A DNA stretch of 64,000 bases, from the NCBI GenBank assembly GCA_018304465.1, contig JAGVWC010000010.1, forward strand, positions 127,211 to 191,210, in the 5' to 3' direction. Both the position numbers and the translations under genes were made by a program. This DNA is from Candidatus Iainarchaeum sp. Its GTDB lineage: Archaea; Iainarchaeota; Iainarchaeia; Iainarchaeales; JAGVWC01. Of this stretch, positions 19,723 through 37,808 are shown in pieces (positions within the stretch are counted from its first letter, which is position 1; each line of letters begins with the position of its first letter). Below the pieces are notes generated by a model. It had not been told where the DNA came from, did no database searches, and worked only from the letters and a program-made list of their open reading frames with translations.

Positions 19723-20121
19723 TTATTTTCGAGAAAGATGCTTTTTCTTTTGGAATTTTTTCAGAAACGATTTTTCATTCATGTAACCGCGGCAGTTCAA
19801 AGCACCGCACGAACATTTTTCCAATTTATCCGAAATCAATTCATAATCCGCCGTAATTTCCTCGCTGGAAGAAATAGTTCGAACCGCGACGTAAAAAATT
19901 TTCCCGCCCCGAACCGACACTCGAACATTGTTGTCACAGGAATGATTCACAAATTTCGATTCGTTTCCATGGATTCCATCCAGATCATGATAGCGATCCA
20001 AATAGAAAATATAGGTGTCCAAGCCCGATTTTTCCCTGGCCTTGGCTTCTCGCTTATCGATTTTTTCACCCACGTACTCCATGATCACCGTTCCTTTTTT
20101 GATTTTTCGAAGCGCAAACAT
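19723..20121 (-). CDS. SET-domain protein (lysine methyltransferase-like)
   Basis: NHSCDNN (canonical NHSCxPN), EEITADY, and post-SET CSCGALNCRG. The long track ORF (to 20394) overlaps tRNA-Leu, so the start is reset to the ATG at 20121; GTG/TTG alternatives at about 20142-20160 would add VTTKPLFEVRDSPIAGKG. Confidence 0.7.
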   Translation of the reverse strand: MFALRKIKKGTVIMEYVGEKIDKREAKAREKSGLDTYIFYLDRYHDLDGIHGNESKFVNHSCDNNVRVSVRGGKIFYVAVRTISSSEEITADYELISDKLEKCSCGALNCRGYMNEKSFLKKFQKKKHLSRK

Positions 20122-20239
20122 TCCTTTTCCCGCAATCGGAGAATCGCGCACTTCAAACAATGGTTTTGTCGTCACAGGTACCGATACAAGCAATGGAATT
20201 GGGTTTAAAAATGAATCAACAAATATGAAAAAAAGGAAA

Positions 20240-20324
20240 ATGCAGGGAGGCGGAATCGAACCGCCGAACGCACTAAGCGAAAGGATCTTGAGTCCTTCGG
20301 GTTTGACCGCTCCCCAATCCCTGC
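20240..20324 (-). tRNA. tRNA-Leu (anticodon CAA), class II with long variable arm
   Basis: Minus strand GCAGGGA..AAGGA-CUCAAGA-UCCUU..long variable arm..GGCGG-UUCGAUU-CCGCC..UCCCUGC-A; no encoded CCA. Confidence 0.8.
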
Positions 20325-20360
20325 AGAGGAAATACAATCCGAATGTAACAATGAATTCAT

Positions 20361-21041
20361 TCAGGGCAAGGCATAAAAACCTTGTTTTAGCCATTGCTCG
20401 AACTTCGCCAAGTGCTTTGGACTTCGGGGTTCAAGGATAGCGAAAAACGCTTTGGTATTCTTTTTTCCATATAATTCCACTTTATATGAAGGGACTGGAT
20501 TTCTTTTCCTTGGCTTTCCAATAGTTAATCTAAAACAAAATCCGATCCGTTGAAGCCCTGCCTTAAGACCAAGCGCTAATTCAGGAGAAACAGTTGTAAA
20601 GAAAACTCTTGGCCGATGCCGGTGCGTTTTTTTCCATAATACGGAAGACTTGTTATACGATTTTTGAAAATTGATACACCCATCCGTATCGAATAATCCA
20701 CGTGCAAACGGAATAAACAGCTCAGAATTTGATAAAACAAAATCAGGTACTTTTGCTATACGGGCTTTTTTTCCTATTGGTGCCCCAGCAGCGATAAATT
20801 TTTCAATGATCTTTCTTTGACCAATCATCACCCCATACGTCCCCCAGTAAAGAAAATCTCTGGGAAAAACGTCAAAGTCAAGCGATTTTTTGAACAATTC
20901 TTTGATGCGACCCAGGTAATATTCTTTTTCATCTTTTGGATTCCCTGTAATCCACATGGTAATCCCCGTATTCCCACGGCTCATCCACCCATCACCAGTG
21001 AAAGCACCATACAGTTCCGCAAACTCGGGCGTGGTGTTCAT
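20361..21041 (-). CDS. Free-standing LAGLIDADG homing endonuclease (double-motif)
   Basis: Two LAGLIDADG motifs, LYGAFTGDGWMS and GLFDTDGCINF; ~227 aa from the ATG at 21041. Lies 36 nt upstream of tRNA-Leu on the same strand. Confidence 0.8.
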   Translation of the reverse strand: MNTTPEFAELYGAFTGDGWMSRGNTGITMWITGNPKDEKEYYLGRIKELFKKSLDFDVFPRDFLYWGTYGVMIGQRKIIEKFIAAGAPIGKKARIAKVPDFVLSNSELFIPFARGLFDTDGCINFQKSYNKSSVLWKKTHRHRPRVFFTTVSPELALGLKAGLQRIGFCFRLTIGKPRKRNPVPSYKVELYGKKNTKAFFAILEPRSPKHLAKFEQWLKQGFYALP

Positions 21042-21155
21042 GCTACAAAAAAAAGAAAAACCTGCAAAGAATGTTTGCACGCACGTCATTGCCGGTGAAT
21101 CGAAGCTGATTTCCCTAAAGTCGTTACATGCGCAAAATCCAAAAAAGTTGCTACA

Positions 21156-23030
21156 TTACACGCCGTTTTCTTCCACTTGCGTGGATTTCTGGTTTTTGTA
21201 CATTGAAATGATTTCTTTGACCGTGGTCGCGTCTTTTGGGGCTTTGTCAATTCGCAGTCTGATCAAACGCGGAAACCGCAACGCGAATCCTTCGTCGTCT
21301 TTTTGCACGACTCCCGCAGTGTGAACCGGGCTCTTGGTGATTTCGTCCGCGCGCACTTCGGCCACGAGCTTTGGTTCCACCCAAAAATCAGGTTCGAGAT
21401 TCGATTCCACGTTTTTTGGACGCGTTTTTACTTTCAGTTTCGAAAGCGTCGATTCCAAATCCGAAAGCATTTGTTCGGTCATGCCGGTACCGATTTTCGC
21501 GAGTGTTTCAAACCGATCCTTGTCCGGATTATACACGGCCGAAAGCAATCCGCCCAACCCGAACTGGGTTCGCTTACCTTGACCCACGAAATAACCCACG
21601 ATCACGACATCCACAGTATCCGACAACTCGCCTTTGTAGGAACGCTTGAGTTTGATCCACGCGAATTTTCTCGCGCCGGCGATGTACGGCGCGTTCAAAT
21701 CCTTGGCGATGATTCCTTCAAGTCCCTGCGAAACACTTTCGTCAAAAAACTTTTCCAAATCCTCGACTTTTTCGGTGATAATGCTTTTGGTAAGCGAAAT
21801 CCGCTCGCCGGACGCGATGATTTTGGACAATTCCGCGCGACGCTCGACAAACGGCAAAGGCATCAGGTTTTTTCCCTCCAAAAACATCAAGTCAAAACAA
21901 AACAAACGCAGCGGATACTCCGTGCTTTTTTCCGAGACGCCGTATTTTCGCTTGCGCTGAATCGTCACCTGGAACGGAAAAAACTCGCCGGTCTTGACAT
22001 TGAACGCGATGGCTTCGGCTTCGAAAATCGCGGCTTTGGCGATGATCTGGCTCTTGATCGCGTCCACGACTTCCGGAAACATAGCCGTCACGTTTTCGCT
22101 GTTTCGCGAAAAAATCGTGACTTTGTCCCCGCTTTTATGGCACTGCAACCGAAAACCATCGTACTTGGCTTCCACCGCGCACTTGCCCAGTTTTTCAATG
22201 ATTTCAGCAGCGGAAGGCAACCGTTCCGCAGCCGTGGGACGAATCGGAATCCCCGGAACGATCTCGATTGCCGCAAGCCCCGCAAGACCGTTTTCCTTGA
22301 GTTTTTCACTTATTTTTCCAAGATCCGGATACACGTTGTATTTTTCCTCGATCATTTCGCGGATCCGCATGCGAAAACGCCGGTCGCGTTCTTCGATCCA
22401 TTCTTCGGGTTTTTTGTCCTTGTTTACTTTCAGTTCGGATTCGATTTCCTTGGCTTGACGCGAAAAATCCTTCGGAAAATCCGCGACAAACACCAACGCC
22501 ATGGCATCCATGATCGTCGGATCGCCAAGCCCCAAGCGCAATTCTTCCAGGGGAATCCGAACAATGAATTTCGCTTCAAGCGGAGACGCCGAATTCAACA
22601 GTTCCGCGAGCAACTTGATTTTCGATTCCTGGCTTCCGGTTCCTTCGGCACGCGCGATTTTTAGCATGTTGTCGAACACTTTTTTCAACCCCAGTTCCTG
22701 CGAAAAAAAAGCCTGTTGTTTTCTTTTTTTCAAGACTTCCTGGCCAACAAGTCCAAGGTCGCCTAATTTTTTGTAGACCGCGTTGATTTCGGAAACGGGA
22801 AAACCGCTTACCTTGGCGATCGATTGCTCGACAAACCGCTCGCCCATTCCGATCTTGATTCCCGAAAAATCAGGACCCAATTTGCCCTGCAGCAAATACA
22901 CGAGTTCCGCGACTTCGCTTGCATCGGCAGAGGAAAACGCGTCGGACACCAGTTTCATGATTTCCAACCGACCGGATTTTTGTTCGATCGATTCGAAAAC
23001 CTTGGCCACCGAAAGAAACTTCATATTCAC
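21156..23030 (-). CDS. lig: ATP-dependent DNA ligase (archaeal/eukaryal type)
   Basis: Adenylation motif I KYDGFRLQ; EGIIAK and DGE-like motifs present; 624 aa. Confidence 0.9.
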   Translation of the reverse strand: MNMKFLSVAKVFESIEQKSGRLEIMKLVSDAFSSADASEVAELVYLLQGKLGPDFSGIKIGMGERFVEQSIAKVSGFPVSEINAVYKKLGDLGLVGQEVLKKRKQQAFFSQELGLKKVFDNMLKIARAEGTGSQESKIKLLAELLNSASPLEAKFIVRIPLEELRLGLGDPTIMDAMALVFVADFPKDFSRQAKEIESELKVNKDKKPEEWIEERDRRFRMRIREMIEEKYNVYPDLGKISEKLKENGLAGLAAIEIVPGIPIRPTAAERLPSAAEIIEKLGKCAVEAKYDGFRLQCHKSGDKVTIFSRNSENVTAMFPEVVDAIKSQIIAKAAIFEAEAIAFNVKTGEFFPFQVTIQRKRKYGVSEKSTEYPLRLFCFDLMFLEGKNLMPLPFVERRAELSKIIASGERISLTKSIITEKVEDLEKFFDESVSQGLEGIIAKDLNAPYIAGARKFAWIKLKRSYKGELSDTVDVVIVGYFVGQGKRTQFGLGGLLSAVYNPDKDRFETLAKIGTGMTEQMLSDLESTLSKLKVKTRPKNVESNLEPDFWVEPKLVAEVRADEITKSPVHTAGVVQKDDEGFALRFPRLIRLRIDKAPKDATTVKEIISMYKNQKSTQVEENGV

Positions 23031-24972: not shown

Positions 24973-25090
24973 GGGGCTGTAGTCTAGCCTGGTAGGACTC
25001 GTGCTTTGGGACAGCTTTTTTGCTGCGGCAAAAAACCTGGGAAAAACTGCAAACCAGCACGAAACCTGAGTTCAAATCTCAGCAGCCCCA
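24973..25090 (+). tRNA. tRNA-Pro (anticodon UGG) with a ~45-nt intron in the anticodon loop
   Basis: GGGGCUG..GUCU/GGAC D-arm..CGUGC-UUUGGG-[intron]-A-GCACG..CUGAG-UUCAAAU-CUCAG-CAGCCCC-A. The 52 nt between the anticodon-stem halves imply an archaeal-type intron after position 37. Confidence 0.7.
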
Positions 25091-25136: not shown

Positions 25137-25209
25137 GGGGCCGTAGTGTAGCTTGGTATCACTTGAGGCTGGGGGTCTCAAAACCCGAGTTCGAATCTCG
25201 GCGGTCCCA
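25137..25209 (+). tRNA. tRNA-Pro (anticodon GGG)
   Basis: GGGGCCG acceptor; anticodon arm UGAGG-CUGGGGG-UCUCA; T-arm CCGAG-UUCGAAU-CUCGG; 3' CGGUCCC-A. Confidence 0.75.
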
Positions 25210-37046: not shown

Positions 37047-37649
37047 TCAGTTTTCTTTTTTTTCGCTTGGAATCGCGACCGAAACCGACACCGGCACCTT
37101 GGGTGGTTTTCGGATTCCGAGCGTAATTTCGGTTTCTTTGGGATTTATTTTTTTCTTCCGGGCTTTTTTTCTGCGCTTGGGCTTTTTCTTCAACTGGTCT
37201 TTTGGAACGAATTCCAACAAGGTTCCATCCGGAATATCCAAACCGATTTTGGCCACGATCTCGACGCTTCCACGGCTACCGGACGACAAGCGCTGGGCTT
37301 TCTGCAAGCCTTCCTGAATCGCCTTGATCGAAATCAATTCTCCGTTATAGACCGCCACCATGCCTTTTTGCAAGACCCCGGACAAAACCTTGCCGTTTAC
37401 CACAAACAAAGGCAAGAGCTTAAACGACGTTGAAACCAAAAAACGGTTTTTTTGACCCGCCAGTGGAACCAACTGTTTTTTTTTCCGTTTTTGATCCGAC
37501 GAAACCGCGGTATTCAAATCCGATTCTTCAATCGCTTCTTCCAAAGGGGTTTTTTCGCCTTTTAACACCAAGGATTGCCTGATCTTTTCCTCGACTTCTT
37601 CCGGTGTATACCGATACTTAGGCCGTTTTAAAAAATCCAATAACCCCAT
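37047..37649 (-). CDS. Hypothetical protein with a possible EF-Tu-domain-2-like beta-barrel and Lys-rich C-terminus
   Basis: GKVLSGVLQKGMVAVYNGELISIKAIQ loosely resembles translation-factor beta-barrels; the ATG at 37649 is preferred over the 37736 start. Confidence 0.35.
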   Translation of the reverse strand: MGLLDFLKRPKYRYTPEEVEEKIRQSLVLKGEKTPLEEAIEESDLNTAVSSDQKRKKKQLVPLAGQKNRFLVSTSFKLLPLFVVNGKVLSGVLQKGMVAVYNGELISIKAIQEGLQKAQRLSSGSRGSVEIVAKIGLDIPDGTLLEFVPKDQLKKKPKRRKKARKKKINPKETEITLGIRKPPKVPVSVSVAIPSEKKEN

Positions 37650-37808
37650 CGAAGACCCATACAAAAAACAGTTCCGATCTATATAAACCAAACGGATCGA
37701 AGCGGAAAACGCCTTCCAAAACCCAAAAAAACCCAAAAAAACCGTTAAACCCCGTTTTTTTGAGAATCAAAGATCGAAATCGCAAAAAAAAGAGGTTCCG
37801 AGAACGAC

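What the first reader, a model, noticed from the sequence alone, without database searches (positions are those of the whole stretch)
20240..21041. Free-standing double-motif LAGLIDADG homing endonuclease abutting tRNA-Leu, downstream of the DNA ligase gene
A 227-aa ORF carries both LAGLIDADG motifs (LYGAFTGDGWMS and GLFDTDGCINF) yet is not inside an intron or intein. It ends 36 nt before the 5' end of an intact tRNA-Leu(CAA) on the same strand. Archaeal LAGLIDADG enzymes are usually intron- or intein-encoded, so a free-standing copy next to a tRNA gene (tRNA genes are frequent integration and homing targets) suggests a mobile-element remnant or a domesticated endonuclease.
Basis: seen in the sequence. 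Interest (0 to 1): 0.55.

Follow-up and report, generated by a model that had tools for sequence, protein, structure and literature searches.

The report
Homing endonuclease gene shadowing tRNA-Leu
An intact "selfish" DNA-cutting enzyme gene sits just upstream of the leucine tRNA gene of this tiny (DPANN) archaeon, and it belongs to a large family, which I could not find described, whose branches each sit next to one particular tRNA gene and are swapped laterally between genomes.

Summary
Window 20364-21041(-) encodes a 226-aa single-chain, two-motif LAGLIDADG protein (Pfam LAGLIDADG_3; AF2 pLDDT 90.8; fold matches I-Tsp061I/I-DmoI/intein endonucleases). It is neither in an intron nor an intein. 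It ends 36 nt before an intact tRNA-Leu(CAA) (20241-20324, -) and lies downstream of an ATP-dependent DNA ligase.

The adjacency is not chance. In 7 of 8 independent loci carrying 46-64%-identical homologues the same tRNA follows, despite different flanking genes. More widely, 41 of 69 metagenomic relatives (27-50% identity) have a same-strand tRNA gene within about 100 nt (0.66 expected), and endonuclease clades track tRNA identity: Leu-CAA, Leu-UAA, Arg-UCG, Gly-UCC and others.

The gene is dispensable and mobile:
- Many related genomes have the same upstream gene abutting the tRNA with no endonuclease.
- The closest syntenic relative keeps only a 22-codon relic.
- One allele carries a premature stop.
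- Two genomes with 97-100% identical flanks (flank dS 0.02-0.2) carry endonuclease alleles only 66% identical (dS about 2), with a 27-nt relic of the displaced tRNA.

Most likely it is an active or recently active free-standing homing endonuclease gene that targets the tRNA-Leu(CAA) locus. No cleavage has been shown. It is a new variant of a known kind.

The parts
20361..21041 (-). Free-standing single-chain LAGLIDADG homing endonuclease gene (226 aa plus stop)
   Evidence: ORF; Pfam LAGLIDADG_3; 26 homologues, all about 220 aa; AF2 pLDDT 90.8 with two alpha-beta-beta-alpha-beta-beta-alpha halves; Foldseek hits to I-Tsp061I, I-DmoI and intein endonucleases
20979..21014 (-). LAGLIDADG motif 1 (LYGAFTGDGWMS); putative catalytic Asp17 = 20991-20993
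   Evidence: G16-D17-G18 invariant in 23 of 23 homologues
20667..20699 (-). LAGLIDADG motif 2 (GLFDTDGCINF); putative catalytic Asp120 = 20682-20684
   Evidence: D118-T119-D120-G121 invariant in 23 of 23
20373..20384 (-). C-terminal codons QGFY = CAAGGTTTTTAT, conserved at DNA level; candidate TATA-like box for the downstream tRNA (inference)
   Evidence: The same DNA is present in all Iain-type loci but one and persists after the premature stop in L006 and in the relics of L211 and L038. It lies about 27-40 nt from the tRNA 5' end in most loci, but 47 nt in this window
20325..20360 (-). 36-nt spacer between the endonuclease stop codon and the tRNA
20241..20324 (-). tRNA-Leu(CAA), intact, intron-less, followed by a T-run
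   Evidence: ARAGORN; Rfam 51.8 bits; T-run
21042..21155 (-). 114-nt spacer between the ligase stop and the endonuclease start; this spacer plus about 200 endonuclease codons are missing in the sister lineage L211
21156..23030 (-). ATP-dependent DNA ligase (context gene, not part of the element)
   Evidence: Pfam DNA_ligase_A_N/M/C; synteny with L211 and L212
37047..37736 (-). Homologue of the hypothetical 'up_' gene that elsewhere lies immediately upstream of the endonuclease-tRNA-Leu pair (or of the tRNA alone); here 17 kb away
   Evidence: tblastn E 5e-26; ORF; no Pfam family

Best explanation
Window 20364-21041(-) is an intact free-standing homing endonuclease gene (HEG) of the single-chain, two-domain LAGLIDADG type. 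It belongs to a large family, so far seen in DPANN archaea, whose members sit directly next to tRNA genes, usually immediately 5' and co-oriented. Each clade is tied to one tRNA species; the window's clade is tied to tRNA-Leu(CAA).

Proposed mechanism, by analogy with 'intronless homing' of phage free-standing endonucleases (inferred, not shown): the enzyme recognises a long site in or next to the tRNA-Leu(CAA) gene of genomes that lack it or that carry a different allele. It makes a double-strand break. Recombinational repair from incoming HEG-bearing DNA then copies the HEG, and often part or all of the neighbouring tRNA gene, into the recipient.

The element then follows the usual homing cycle of invasion, fixation, decay and loss. 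The window shows the intact stage. The 3' end of the gene probably carries or abuts the tRNA promoter. That would explain why deletions leave a 3' relic and would favour retention of the gene.

Shown: fold and motifs, free-standing status, conserved tRNA linkage, clade-tRNA correspondence, presence/absence/relic states, purifying selection, lateral allele replacement. Inferred: nuclease activity, target inside the tRNA gene, promoter embedding.
For: Enzyme identity: Pfam LAGLIDADG_3 above cut-off. Both motif Asp residues are invariant in 23 homologues. AF2 pLDDT 90.8. Foldseek hits: TliVMA intein endonuclease E 2.9e-11, I-Tsp061I TM 0.72/0.78, I-DmoI, I-AniI, PI-PfuI.

Free-standing status: own ATG and stop, and intergenic spacers of 114 and 36 nt. 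Homologues are all about 220 aa, as are 1184 clusters at E<=1e-10, nearly all 200-270 aa.

Linkage to the tRNA: tRNA-Leu(CAA) follows the gene in the window, L007, L008, L010, L006 and L009, although flanking genes differ. In L005 an IS66 transposase interrupts right after the stop. A 34-38%-identical clade in Pacearchaeota/Woesearchaeota also abuts tRNA-Leu(CAA). Family-wide, 41 of 69 loci have a same-strand tRNA against 0.66 expected, plus 3 multi-intron same-strand and 5 convergent cases. Endonuclease clades map to tRNA identity. The nearest-neighbour same-tRNA fraction is 0.72, against a maximum of 0.43 in 2000 permutations.

Dispensable and cycling: 18 of 18 Iainarchaeum-labelled genomes sampled have tRNA-Leu(CAA) without the gene. 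The conserved up_ gene ends 22-142 nt from the tRNA in 10 HEG-less loci. L211 (ligase 75% identical, same synteny) keeps only codons 201-222. Further relics occur in L086 and L062. L006 has a premature stop.

Selection: dN/dS 0.09-0.14.

Lateral replacement: L006 and L007 flanks are 97-100% identical, but the 3' end of the up_ gene plus the HEG plus the 5' part of the tRNA are only 46-80% identical. The left boundary is graded. The right boundary is abrupt, inside the resident tRNA at about nt 59, leaving a 27-nt relic. The proteins are 66% identical. dS is 2.08 for the HEG against 0.02-0.20 for flanking genes; L005 against L006/L007 gives 1.8-2.2 against 0.5-0.9.

Promoter idea. In phage T4, promoters embedded in HEGs are argued to favour their retention (PMC2988022).
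Against: No biochemical evidence of cleavage, and no target site has been defined. No position in tRNA-Leu(CAA) cleanly distinguishes HEG-bearing from HEG-less alleles, so self-immunity is unexplained for the intron-less tRNA in the window.

Simple homing does not predict the nearly constant position and orientation (5', same strand, 0-90 nt). The clade-tRNA correspondence would also arise from vertical co-inheritance of a linked pair.

Only one near-identical genome pair (L006/L007) documents replacement, and ordinary recombination could in principle produce it. Strong purifying selection and many conserved blocks outside the LAGLIDADG motifs are also compatible with a host function.

The TATA-like box is 47 nt from the tRNA in this window, further than in most loci. 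No close relatives were found on viral contigs that could act as vectors.
Confidence: 0.72

Rival explanations
1. Domesticated LAGLIDADG protein with a host function tied to the neighbouring tRNA gene. Examples would be a sequence-specific DNA-binding regulator of tRNA transcription, or an RNA-binding helper for processing the pre-tRNA or its introns (maturase-like). Under this reading it is co-transcribed with the tRNA and inherited vertically.
For: Constant position and orientation immediately 5' of the tRNA. Low dN/dS. Extensive conserved blocks outside the catalytic motifs, such as GNPKDEKEYY, YWGTYG and KSYNKNASKWQK. Single copy in the window. HEG-adjacent tRNAs are intron-rich: 20/41 against 15/87, p = 5e-4. 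WhiA, a domesticated LAGLIDADG regulator, is among the structural hits.
Against: The gene is absent at the orthologous site in most related genomes, where the same tRNA is intact. It was deleted to a 22-codon relic in the nearest syntenic relative. It is pseudogenised or fragmented in L006, L062 and L086. Both catalytic Asp are invariant, whereas WhiA-type domestication is, from general knowledge, associated with loss of catalytic residues and gain of an HTH domain. Allele dS is far above flank dS, which indicates lateral replacement. The tRNA in the window has no intron to process.
Confidence: 0.13
2. A fixed, now functionless passenger. The gene was once a homing element but has no remaining targets in its population. 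It is merely awaiting decay, and the tRNA adjacency is a historical scar only.
For: Decay stages are seen elsewhere. No empty-site allele of the window's own species was recovered; 15 contigs carry the identical protein.
Against: The ORF is full length, with every invariant family residue retained. Long-term dN/dS is about 0.1. Lateral replacement has been recent in a sister group.
Confidence: 0.1
3. Cargo or remnant of a larger integrative element (virus or plasmid) that used the tRNA-Leu gene as its attachment site.
For: tRNA genes are classical integration sites (general knowledge). A tyrosine-recombinase gene lies 5 kb upstream in L009. L006 carries a partial tRNA duplicate.
Against: There is no integrase and no repeat of the tRNA 3' end in the window. 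Neighbouring genes are housekeeping and syntenic with L211. The gene lies 5' of the tRNA, whereas integrases usually target the 3' part of a tRNA gene (general knowledge). The conserved unit across loci is only the endonuclease gene plus the tRNA. Viral contigs hold only 23-30%-identical relatives.
Confidence: 0.04

Closest known systems
Phage T4 SegB and the other seg/mob free-standing homing endonucleases ('intronless homing')
   Same: A free-standing endonuclease gene inserted in an intergenic space next to tRNA genes. SegB lies between tRNA-Arg and tRNA-Ile and drives preferential inheritance of the tRNA region (PMC2988022 table 1 and PMC2330249 abstract). Shared features are presence/absence between relatives, co-conversion of flanking DNA, and promoters embedded in or near the HEG that favour its retention.
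   Different: SegB is a GIY-YIG enzyme in a phage genome and spreads during co-infection. Here the enzyme is a LAGLIDADG protein in archaeal chromosomes. It belongs to a radiating family with a separate clade per tRNA species, and its position is nearly fixed at the 5' side of the tRNA in the same orientation. The route of DNA entry is unknown.
Archaeal intron-encoded LAGLIDADG endonucleases I-DmoI and I-Tsp061I (rRNA introns)
   Same: Archaeal, single-chain, two-motif LAGLIDADG fold. They are among the best structural matches: 2dch TM 0.72/0.78, and many I-DmoI chains.
   Different: Only 14-16% sequence identity. Those enzymes are encoded inside rRNA introns and cut the intron-less rDNA. This gene is not inside any intron, and no rRNA gene is nearby.
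Intein-encoded LAGLIDADG endonucleases (TliVMA intein, PI-PfuI, PI-SceI; Pfam LAGLIDADG_3)
   Same: The same Pfam family and the top Foldseek hit (7qsu, E 2.9e-11, 21% identity).
   Different: No Hint/splicing domains and no host extein. The protein is a stand-alone 226-aa ORF with its own start and stop.
F-CphI and the ORF-less psbA intron of cyanophage S-PM2 ('collaborative homing')
   Same: A free-standing endonuclease gene lies next to a gene whose intron can interrupt the enzyme's target (PMC6083498; PMC2988022 section 16). Here many HEG-adjacent tRNAs carry introns: L006, L009, L132, L133, L143 and 20 of 41 family-wide.
   Different: The window's tRNA has no intron. The introns here are archaeal tRNA introns rather than group I introns, and whether they interrupt the target is untested. 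The enzyme family also differs (Endo VII-like against LAGLIDADG).
WhiA (bacterial domesticated LAGLIDADG transcription factor)
   Same: A free-standing two-domain LAGLIDADG fold; 8dy9_I is a structural hit.
   Different: From general knowledge, WhiA lacks the catalytic acidic residues and has a C-terminal HTH domain. This protein keeps both Asp residues and has no extra domain. Its distribution is also sporadic rather than universal.

Membership tests
LAGLIDADG homing endonuclease, single-chain two-motif type | Two LAGLIDADG motifs in one polypeptide | tested here: met
   LYGAFTGDGWMS and GLFDTDGCINF; conserved in 23 of 23 homologues
LAGLIDADG homing endonuclease, single-chain two-motif type | Profile match above the curated threshold | tested here: met
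   PF14528 LAGLIDADG_3, 36.2 bits against a 22.5-bit cut-off, on the C-terminal half only. NCBIfam has no curated family for it
LAGLIDADG homing endonuclease, single-chain two-motif type | Pseudo-dimeric alpha-beta-beta-alpha-beta-beta-alpha x2 fold | tested here: met
   AF2 pLDDT 90.8, with the secondary-structure order matching; Foldseek probability 1.00 to I-Tsp061I, I-DmoI, I-AniI and PI-PfuI
LAGLIDADG homing endonuclease, single-chain two-motif type | Acidic catalytic residue at the end of each LAGLIDADG helix | tested here: met
   D17 and D120 invariant
LAGLIDADG homing endonuclease, single-chain two-motif type | Site-specific cleavage of a long DNA target | not testable with these tools
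   Needs protein expression and a cleavage assay
Free-standing HEG / intronless homing | Not embedded in an intron or intein | tested here: met
   Own ATG and stop with spacers of 114 and 36 nt; no Hint domain; no split RNA gene around it
Free-standing HEG / intronless homing | Presence/absence polymorphism at an orthologous intergenic site | tested here: met
   The up_ gene abuts tRNA-Leu directly in 10 loci, against up_-HEG-tRNA in L005-L008 and L010; relic in L211
Free-standing HEG / intronless homing | Lateral (non-vertical) transmission with co-conversion of flanks | tested here: met
   L006/L007 mosaic; HEG dS 2.08 against flank dS 0.02-0.20. This rests on a single clear pair plus L005
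Free-standing HEG / intronless homing | The enzyme cleaves the HEG-less allele near its own insertion site | not testable with these tools
   Only an indirect hint: the replacement boundary lies inside the resident tRNA in L006
Intein-encoded endonuclease | Flanking Hint/splicing blocks in-frame within a host protein | tested here: not met
   No intein domains; stand-alone ORF
Archaeal intron-encoded endonuclease | ORF lies inside an intron of an rRNA or tRNA gene | tested here: not met
   The tRNA-Leu is complete and lies downstream; there is no rRNA in the window
tRNA-targeting integrative element | Integrase plus direct repeat of the tRNA end bounding an island | tested here: not met
   No repeats; housekeeping synteny
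Domesticated LAGLIDADG (WhiA-like) | Loss of catalytic residues, an added DNA-binding domain, and universal presence in the lineage | tested here: not met
   Catalytic Asp retained; no extra domain; sporadic distribution

The most novel reading that the evidence does not exclude
The endonuclease gene and its tRNA form a co-mobile cassette in an arms race. Each endonuclease lineage cuts the 'naked' version of one tRNA gene, and the incoming cassette brings a resistant tRNA allele, often one interrupted by an intron. If so, these elements would drive both tRNA gene replacement and the spread and odd placement of tRNA introns in DPANN and other archaea. That would be a chromosomal, archaeal form of 'collaborative homing'. 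It would also give a concrete agent for the old proposal that tRNA introns and split tRNA genes protect against mobile elements (that proposal is from general knowledge, not a paper read here). In addition, the tRNA promoter embedded in the 3' end of the endonuclease gene would make the element hard to delete.
Probability: 0.22. Interest if true: 0.85.

Novelty: new variant of a known kind. Interest (0 to 1): 0.66.

Why it matters
Homing endonucleases in archaea are known from rRNA introns and inteins. Free-standing 'intronless homing' is essentially a phage phenomenon. This locus points to a large set of chromosomal, free-standing LAGLIDADG genes: 1184 sequence clusters at E<=1e-10. Each lineage is attached to one tRNA gene, and in one case there is direct evidence of lateral allele replacement. 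If the enzymes do cut tRNA genes, three things follow:
- They would be a previously unrecognised force shaping tRNA gene content, tRNA introns and local gene order in DPANN archaea.
- They would provide a natural library of compact meganucleases with different specificities of about 20 bp against highly conserved sequences.
- They would give a testable link between selfish endonucleases and the origin or maintenance of archaeal tRNA introns.

For annotation, the result warns that these ORFs, now labelled 'hypothetical' or 'intein/homing endonuclease', are a coherent family. It also shows that tRNA finders often miss the multi-intron tRNAs beside them.

Tried and rejected
- Sequence search of PDB with the single protein gave only spurious weak hits (Cif hydrolase, E about 0.01). 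Only the fold search was informative.
- Rfam at gathering threshold with default filters missed the window's own tRNA-Leu and most intron-containing tRNAs next to relatives. I relied on ARAGORN, one Rfam E-value scan and my own T-arm/acceptor heuristic. The count of adjacent tRNAs is therefore a lower bound. Some ARAGORN identities for intron-bearing tRNAs are wrong, for example 'SeC(tca)' where the tRNA is Leu(CAA).
- A search for target-site duplications or direct repeats around the gene in the window found only short chance repeats.
- I looked for a second family member in the 64-kb window and found none.
- I looked for positions in tRNA-Leu(CAA) that distinguish HEG-bearing from HEG-less alleles. 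There was no fixed difference, only a frequency shift at anticodon-stem pair 29:43 that is confounded by phylogeny.
- Viral contigs as a possible vector held only 23-30%-identical relatives.
- I searched for further near-identical locus pairs like L006/L007 among 227 loci and found none that were informative. Several loci are duplicates of one contig: L137=L139, L145-147, L192/194/195 and L138/L155.
- Literature searches for tRNA-flanking free-standing LAGLIDADG genes in DPANN or archaea found nothing. The library lacks most subscription papers, so this absence is not proof.
- The idea that the endonuclease gene lies inside a split tRNA or an intron was rejected for the window, because the tRNA is contiguous and complete.
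Full report
**1. What is in the window**

On the minus strand an ORF runs from ATG 21041 to a stop at 20361-20363 and encodes 226 aa. A longer in-frame ATG at 21089 would give 242 aa. It contains LYGAFTGDGWMS (20979-21014) and GLFDTDGCINF (20667-20699). Pfam LAGLIDADG_3 matches the C-terminal half above its cut-off, 36.2 against 22.5 bits.

Directly downstream on the same strand is tRNA-Leu(CAA). ARAGORN places it at 20240-20325. The Rfam tRNA model places it at 20241-20324 with 51.8 bits. Upstream, 114 nt away, is a complete ATP-dependent DNA ligase at 21156-23030. There is no Hint or intein domain, no rRNA, and no interrupted RNA gene around the ORF.

**2. The protein**

A database search found the identical protein annotated in a Candidatus Diapherotrites (DPANN) MAG. 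It also found 25 relatives at 46-64% identity, all about 220 aa. In an alignment of 23 sequences, G16-D17-G18 and D118-T119-D120-G121 are invariant. So are many other positions, including GNPKDEKEYY, YWGTYG, KSYNKNASKWQK and a C-terminal QGFY.

AlphaFold2 on that alignment gives pLDDT 90.8 with two alpha-beta-beta-alpha-beta-beta-alpha halves. Foldseek against PDB returns the TliVMA intein endonuclease (E 2.9e-11), archaeal intron-encoded I-Tsp061I (TM 0.72/0.78), I-DmoI, I-AniI, PI-PfuI, PI-SceI and also WhiA. It is therefore a bona fide single-chain LAGLIDADG fold with both catalytic acidic residues in place. A profile search of 1.84 billion representatives gave 3492 hits at E<=1e-3 and 1184 at E<=1e-10. 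Almost all are 200-270 aa, which means free-standing. NCBIfam has no curated model for the family.

**3. The link to tRNA-Leu(CAA) is conserved although the neighbourhood is not**

I looked up the contigs of seven relatives.
- L007, L008 and L010 have tRNA-Leu(CAA) 15-50 nt after the stop.
- L006 and L009 have an intron-containing tRNA-Leu(CAA) there.
- In L005 an IS66-family transposase gene (PF03050, E 5e-9) starts right after the stop and the contig ends.
- One locus could not be read.

The flanking genes differ. In the window they are the ligase and a SET-domain gene. In L005-L007 they are HMG-CoA reductase, a ferric reductase and an acetyltransferase. In L008-L010 they are heavy-metal ATPase, RimK and MATCAP genes. 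A small hypothetical 'up_' gene lies just upstream of the endonuclease in L005-L008 and L010. In the window its homologue is 17 kb away, at 37047-37736. The tightest unit is therefore endonuclease gene plus tRNA.

**4. The gene is dispensable and shows every stage of the homing-element cycle**

Of these, 107 have at least 850 nt upstream of the tRNA.
- Only three carry an intact relative directly upstream, at 34-38% identity: L020 and L104 (Pacearchaeota) and L110 (Woesearchaeota).
- None of 18 Iainarchaeum-labelled loci carries one.
- In ten loci the up_ gene ends 22-142 nt before the tRNA, leaving no room for the endonuclease. These are clean empty sites.

The closest relative by ligase identity (75%) is L211. 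It has the window's gene order (ProRS, GT2, His_Phos, ligase, then CTP_transf and CysRS). Between the ligase stop and tRNA-Leu(CAA), however, it holds only a 22-codon relic, SPKHINKFNQWLKQGF*. The relic is 68% identical to residues 201-222 of the window protein (E 1.6e-7). L212 (ligase 72% identical) has an unrelated ORF in that position. Further relics or fragments lie upstream of the tRNA in L086 and L062. L043 holds a C-terminal piece cut by the contig end, and L038 holds a possible mini-relic. L006 has a TGG-to-TAG stop 10 codons early. Where the gene is intact it is under purifying selection, with dN/dS 0.09-0.14.

**5. Direct evidence of lateral replacement**

L006 and L007 are 97-100% identical on both sides. 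From the 3' end of the up_ gene, through the endonuclease gene, and into the tRNA, identity drops to 46-80%. The two endonucleases are 66% identical. Synonymous divergence is 2.08 for the endonuclease gene, against 0.02, 0.14 and 0.20 for three flanking genes. L005 against L006/L007 gives 1.8-2.2 against 0.5-0.9. The alleles are therefore far older than the split of their host genomes.

The left boundary of the divergent tract is graded, as expected for homologous exchange. The right boundary is abrupt. L006 carries a complete foreign, intron-containing tRNA-Leu(CAA) and a T-run. These are followed by the last 27 nt of the L007-type tRNA. A break in the resident tRNA gene, repaired from a foreign cassette, is the simplest reading. 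It is one case, however, and ordinary recombination cannot be excluded.

**6. The window's gene is one member of a much larger tRNA-associated family**

A metagenome scan with the alignment kept 80 loci encoding full-length relatives at 27-50% identity. ARAGORN finds a same-strand tRNA gene starting within -60..+120 nt of the match end in 41 of 69 loci that have enough sequence. The expectation from tRNA density in the same loci is 0.66. My own heuristic adds three multi-intron same-strand tRNAs and five convergent ones. Inspection by eye suggests more. A few loci are duplicates of one contig.

In a neighbour-joining tree the clades follow the identity of the adjacent tRNA:
- two Leu(CAA) clades, Iainarchaeota-type and Pace/Woese-type;
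- a Leu(UAA) clade;
- an Arg(UCG) clade;
- a Gly(UCC) clade;
- a clade next to a multi-intron Met-like tRNA;
- a clade with a tRNA about 230-290 nt upstream;
- scattered His, Thr, Ser, Gln, Asn, Tyr, Trp and Cys cases.

The most similar non-duplicate relative has the same tRNA label in 72% of cases. The maximum in 2000 label permutations was 43%. Vertical co-inheritance contributes to this figure. Even so, the many different tRNA partners, all with the same geometry, require repeated relocation to tRNA genes.

In the Pace/Woese-type loci the ORF runs up to or into the tRNA gene. In L020, L104 and L110 the stop codon is the tRNA's own U8-A9-G10. Viral contigs hold only 23-30%-identical relatives.

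**7. How it most likely works**

The best-supported model is intronless homing, as established for the free-standing seg and mob endonucleases of phage T4. T4 SegB sits between tRNA genes and drives preferential inheritance of the tRNA region (PMC2988022 table 1; PMC2330249). A homing gene must lie close to its cleavage site. The only feature shared by all loci of a clade is the tRNA gene. The target is therefore inferred to lie in or beside that tRNA gene. tRNA genes are ideal conserved targets.

A second inference concerns the tRNA promoter. The C-terminal codons CAAGGTTTTTAT are conserved at the DNA level. They persist after the premature stop in L006 and in the relics of L211 and L038. In most loci they lie about 27-40 nt from the tRNA 5' end. 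L132 lacks them and instead has a TTTTATTAAAA box in the spacer at about -30. Since L211 lost everything upstream of the relic but must still express its tRNA, the promoter probably lies in the retained 120 nt. In T4, promoters embedded in such genes are thought to protect them from deletion (PMC2988022 section 9). In the window itself the box is 47 nt away, so this point is weaker here.

**8. Open problems and rivals**

No position in the tRNA distinguishes bearing from non-bearing alleles, so self-immunity is unexplained for the intron-less tRNA of the window. The fixed 5', co-oriented geometry is not predicted by homing alone.

Endonuclease-adjacent tRNAs carry introns more often than other tRNAs in DPANN loci: 20/41 against 15/87, Fisher p = 5e-4 with the same detector. 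This fits an intron-as-immunity ('collaborative homing') scenario (PMC6083498) but does not prove it.

A domesticated host function is the main rival. It is disfavoured by the sporadic distribution, the relics, the retained catalytic residues and the excess dS. An integrative-element origin is not supported: there is no integrase and there are no att repeats, and the surrounding synteny is housekeeping.

**9. Novelty**

Six literature searches found no description of free-standing LAGLIDADG genes flanking tRNA genes in archaea. The library misses most subscription journals, so this is a provisional negative. I rate the finding as a new variant of a known kind. The enzyme family and the homing logic are known. 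New are the chromosomal archaeal setting, the systematic one-clade-per-tRNA association, the overlap with the tRNA gene or its promoter, and the replacement of the cassette.

Noticed in passing
window 24973-25090 (+) and 25137-25209 (+): Rfam finds a 118-nt, evidently intron-containing tRNA (52.8 bits) 46 nt upstream of tRNA-Pro(GGG). ARAGORN in default mode missed it. Its identity and intron position were not determined.
   Followed up: no
window 19723-20394 (-): The mechanical 223-aa ORF overlaps the tRNA-Leu gene. The SET domain starts at residue 89, so the real SET-domain gene probably starts at the internal Met (MFALRK..., about 20130). This SET gene is absent from the otherwise syntenic L211.
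   Followed up: partly
P0233 and P0240 (homologues of the window ligase): Some Diapherotrites DNA ligases are about 960 aa and carry LAGLIDADG_3 plus intein domains. The ligase gene next door is thus itself an intein target in other lineages; the window's ligase has none.
   Followed up: no
L005 6704-7141 (-): An IS66-family transposase (PF03050, E 5e-9) is inserted immediately after the endonuclease stop codon, exactly where the tRNA is expected. The contig ends inside it.
   Followed up: yes
L157, L168, L171, L201, L150, L163 (downstream of the endonuclease ORF): The tRNAs next to several family members have two or more introns, some in the T-arm or D-arm. Both ARAGORN and Rfam at gathering threshold miss them.
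   Followed up: partly
L020, L104, L110, L138, L143, L155: In the Pace/Woese-type clade the endonuclease ORF overlaps the tRNA gene by 10-51 nt. In three loci the stop codon is the tRNA's conserved U8-A9-G10.
   Followed up: partly
L120 (Iainarchaeum, genome contig JAFGGZ010000054.1): A tRNA-Leu(CAA) with an intron at a non-canonical position, between the D-arm and the anticodon stem, with no endonuclease gene upstream.
   Followed up: no
L026 2914-3518 versus L108: Two 95%-identical archaeal contigs differ by an indel of about 600 nt roughly 1 kb from their tRNA-Leu(CAA). The content of the extra segment was not examined.
   Followed up: no
window 37047-37736 (-): The conserved hypothetical 'up_' gene has no Pfam family. 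It is syntenic with tRNA-Leu(CAA) across many DPANN genomes but is displaced 17 kb in this genome, which implies a rearrangement with a breakpoint just 5' of the endonuclease gene.
   Followed up: partly
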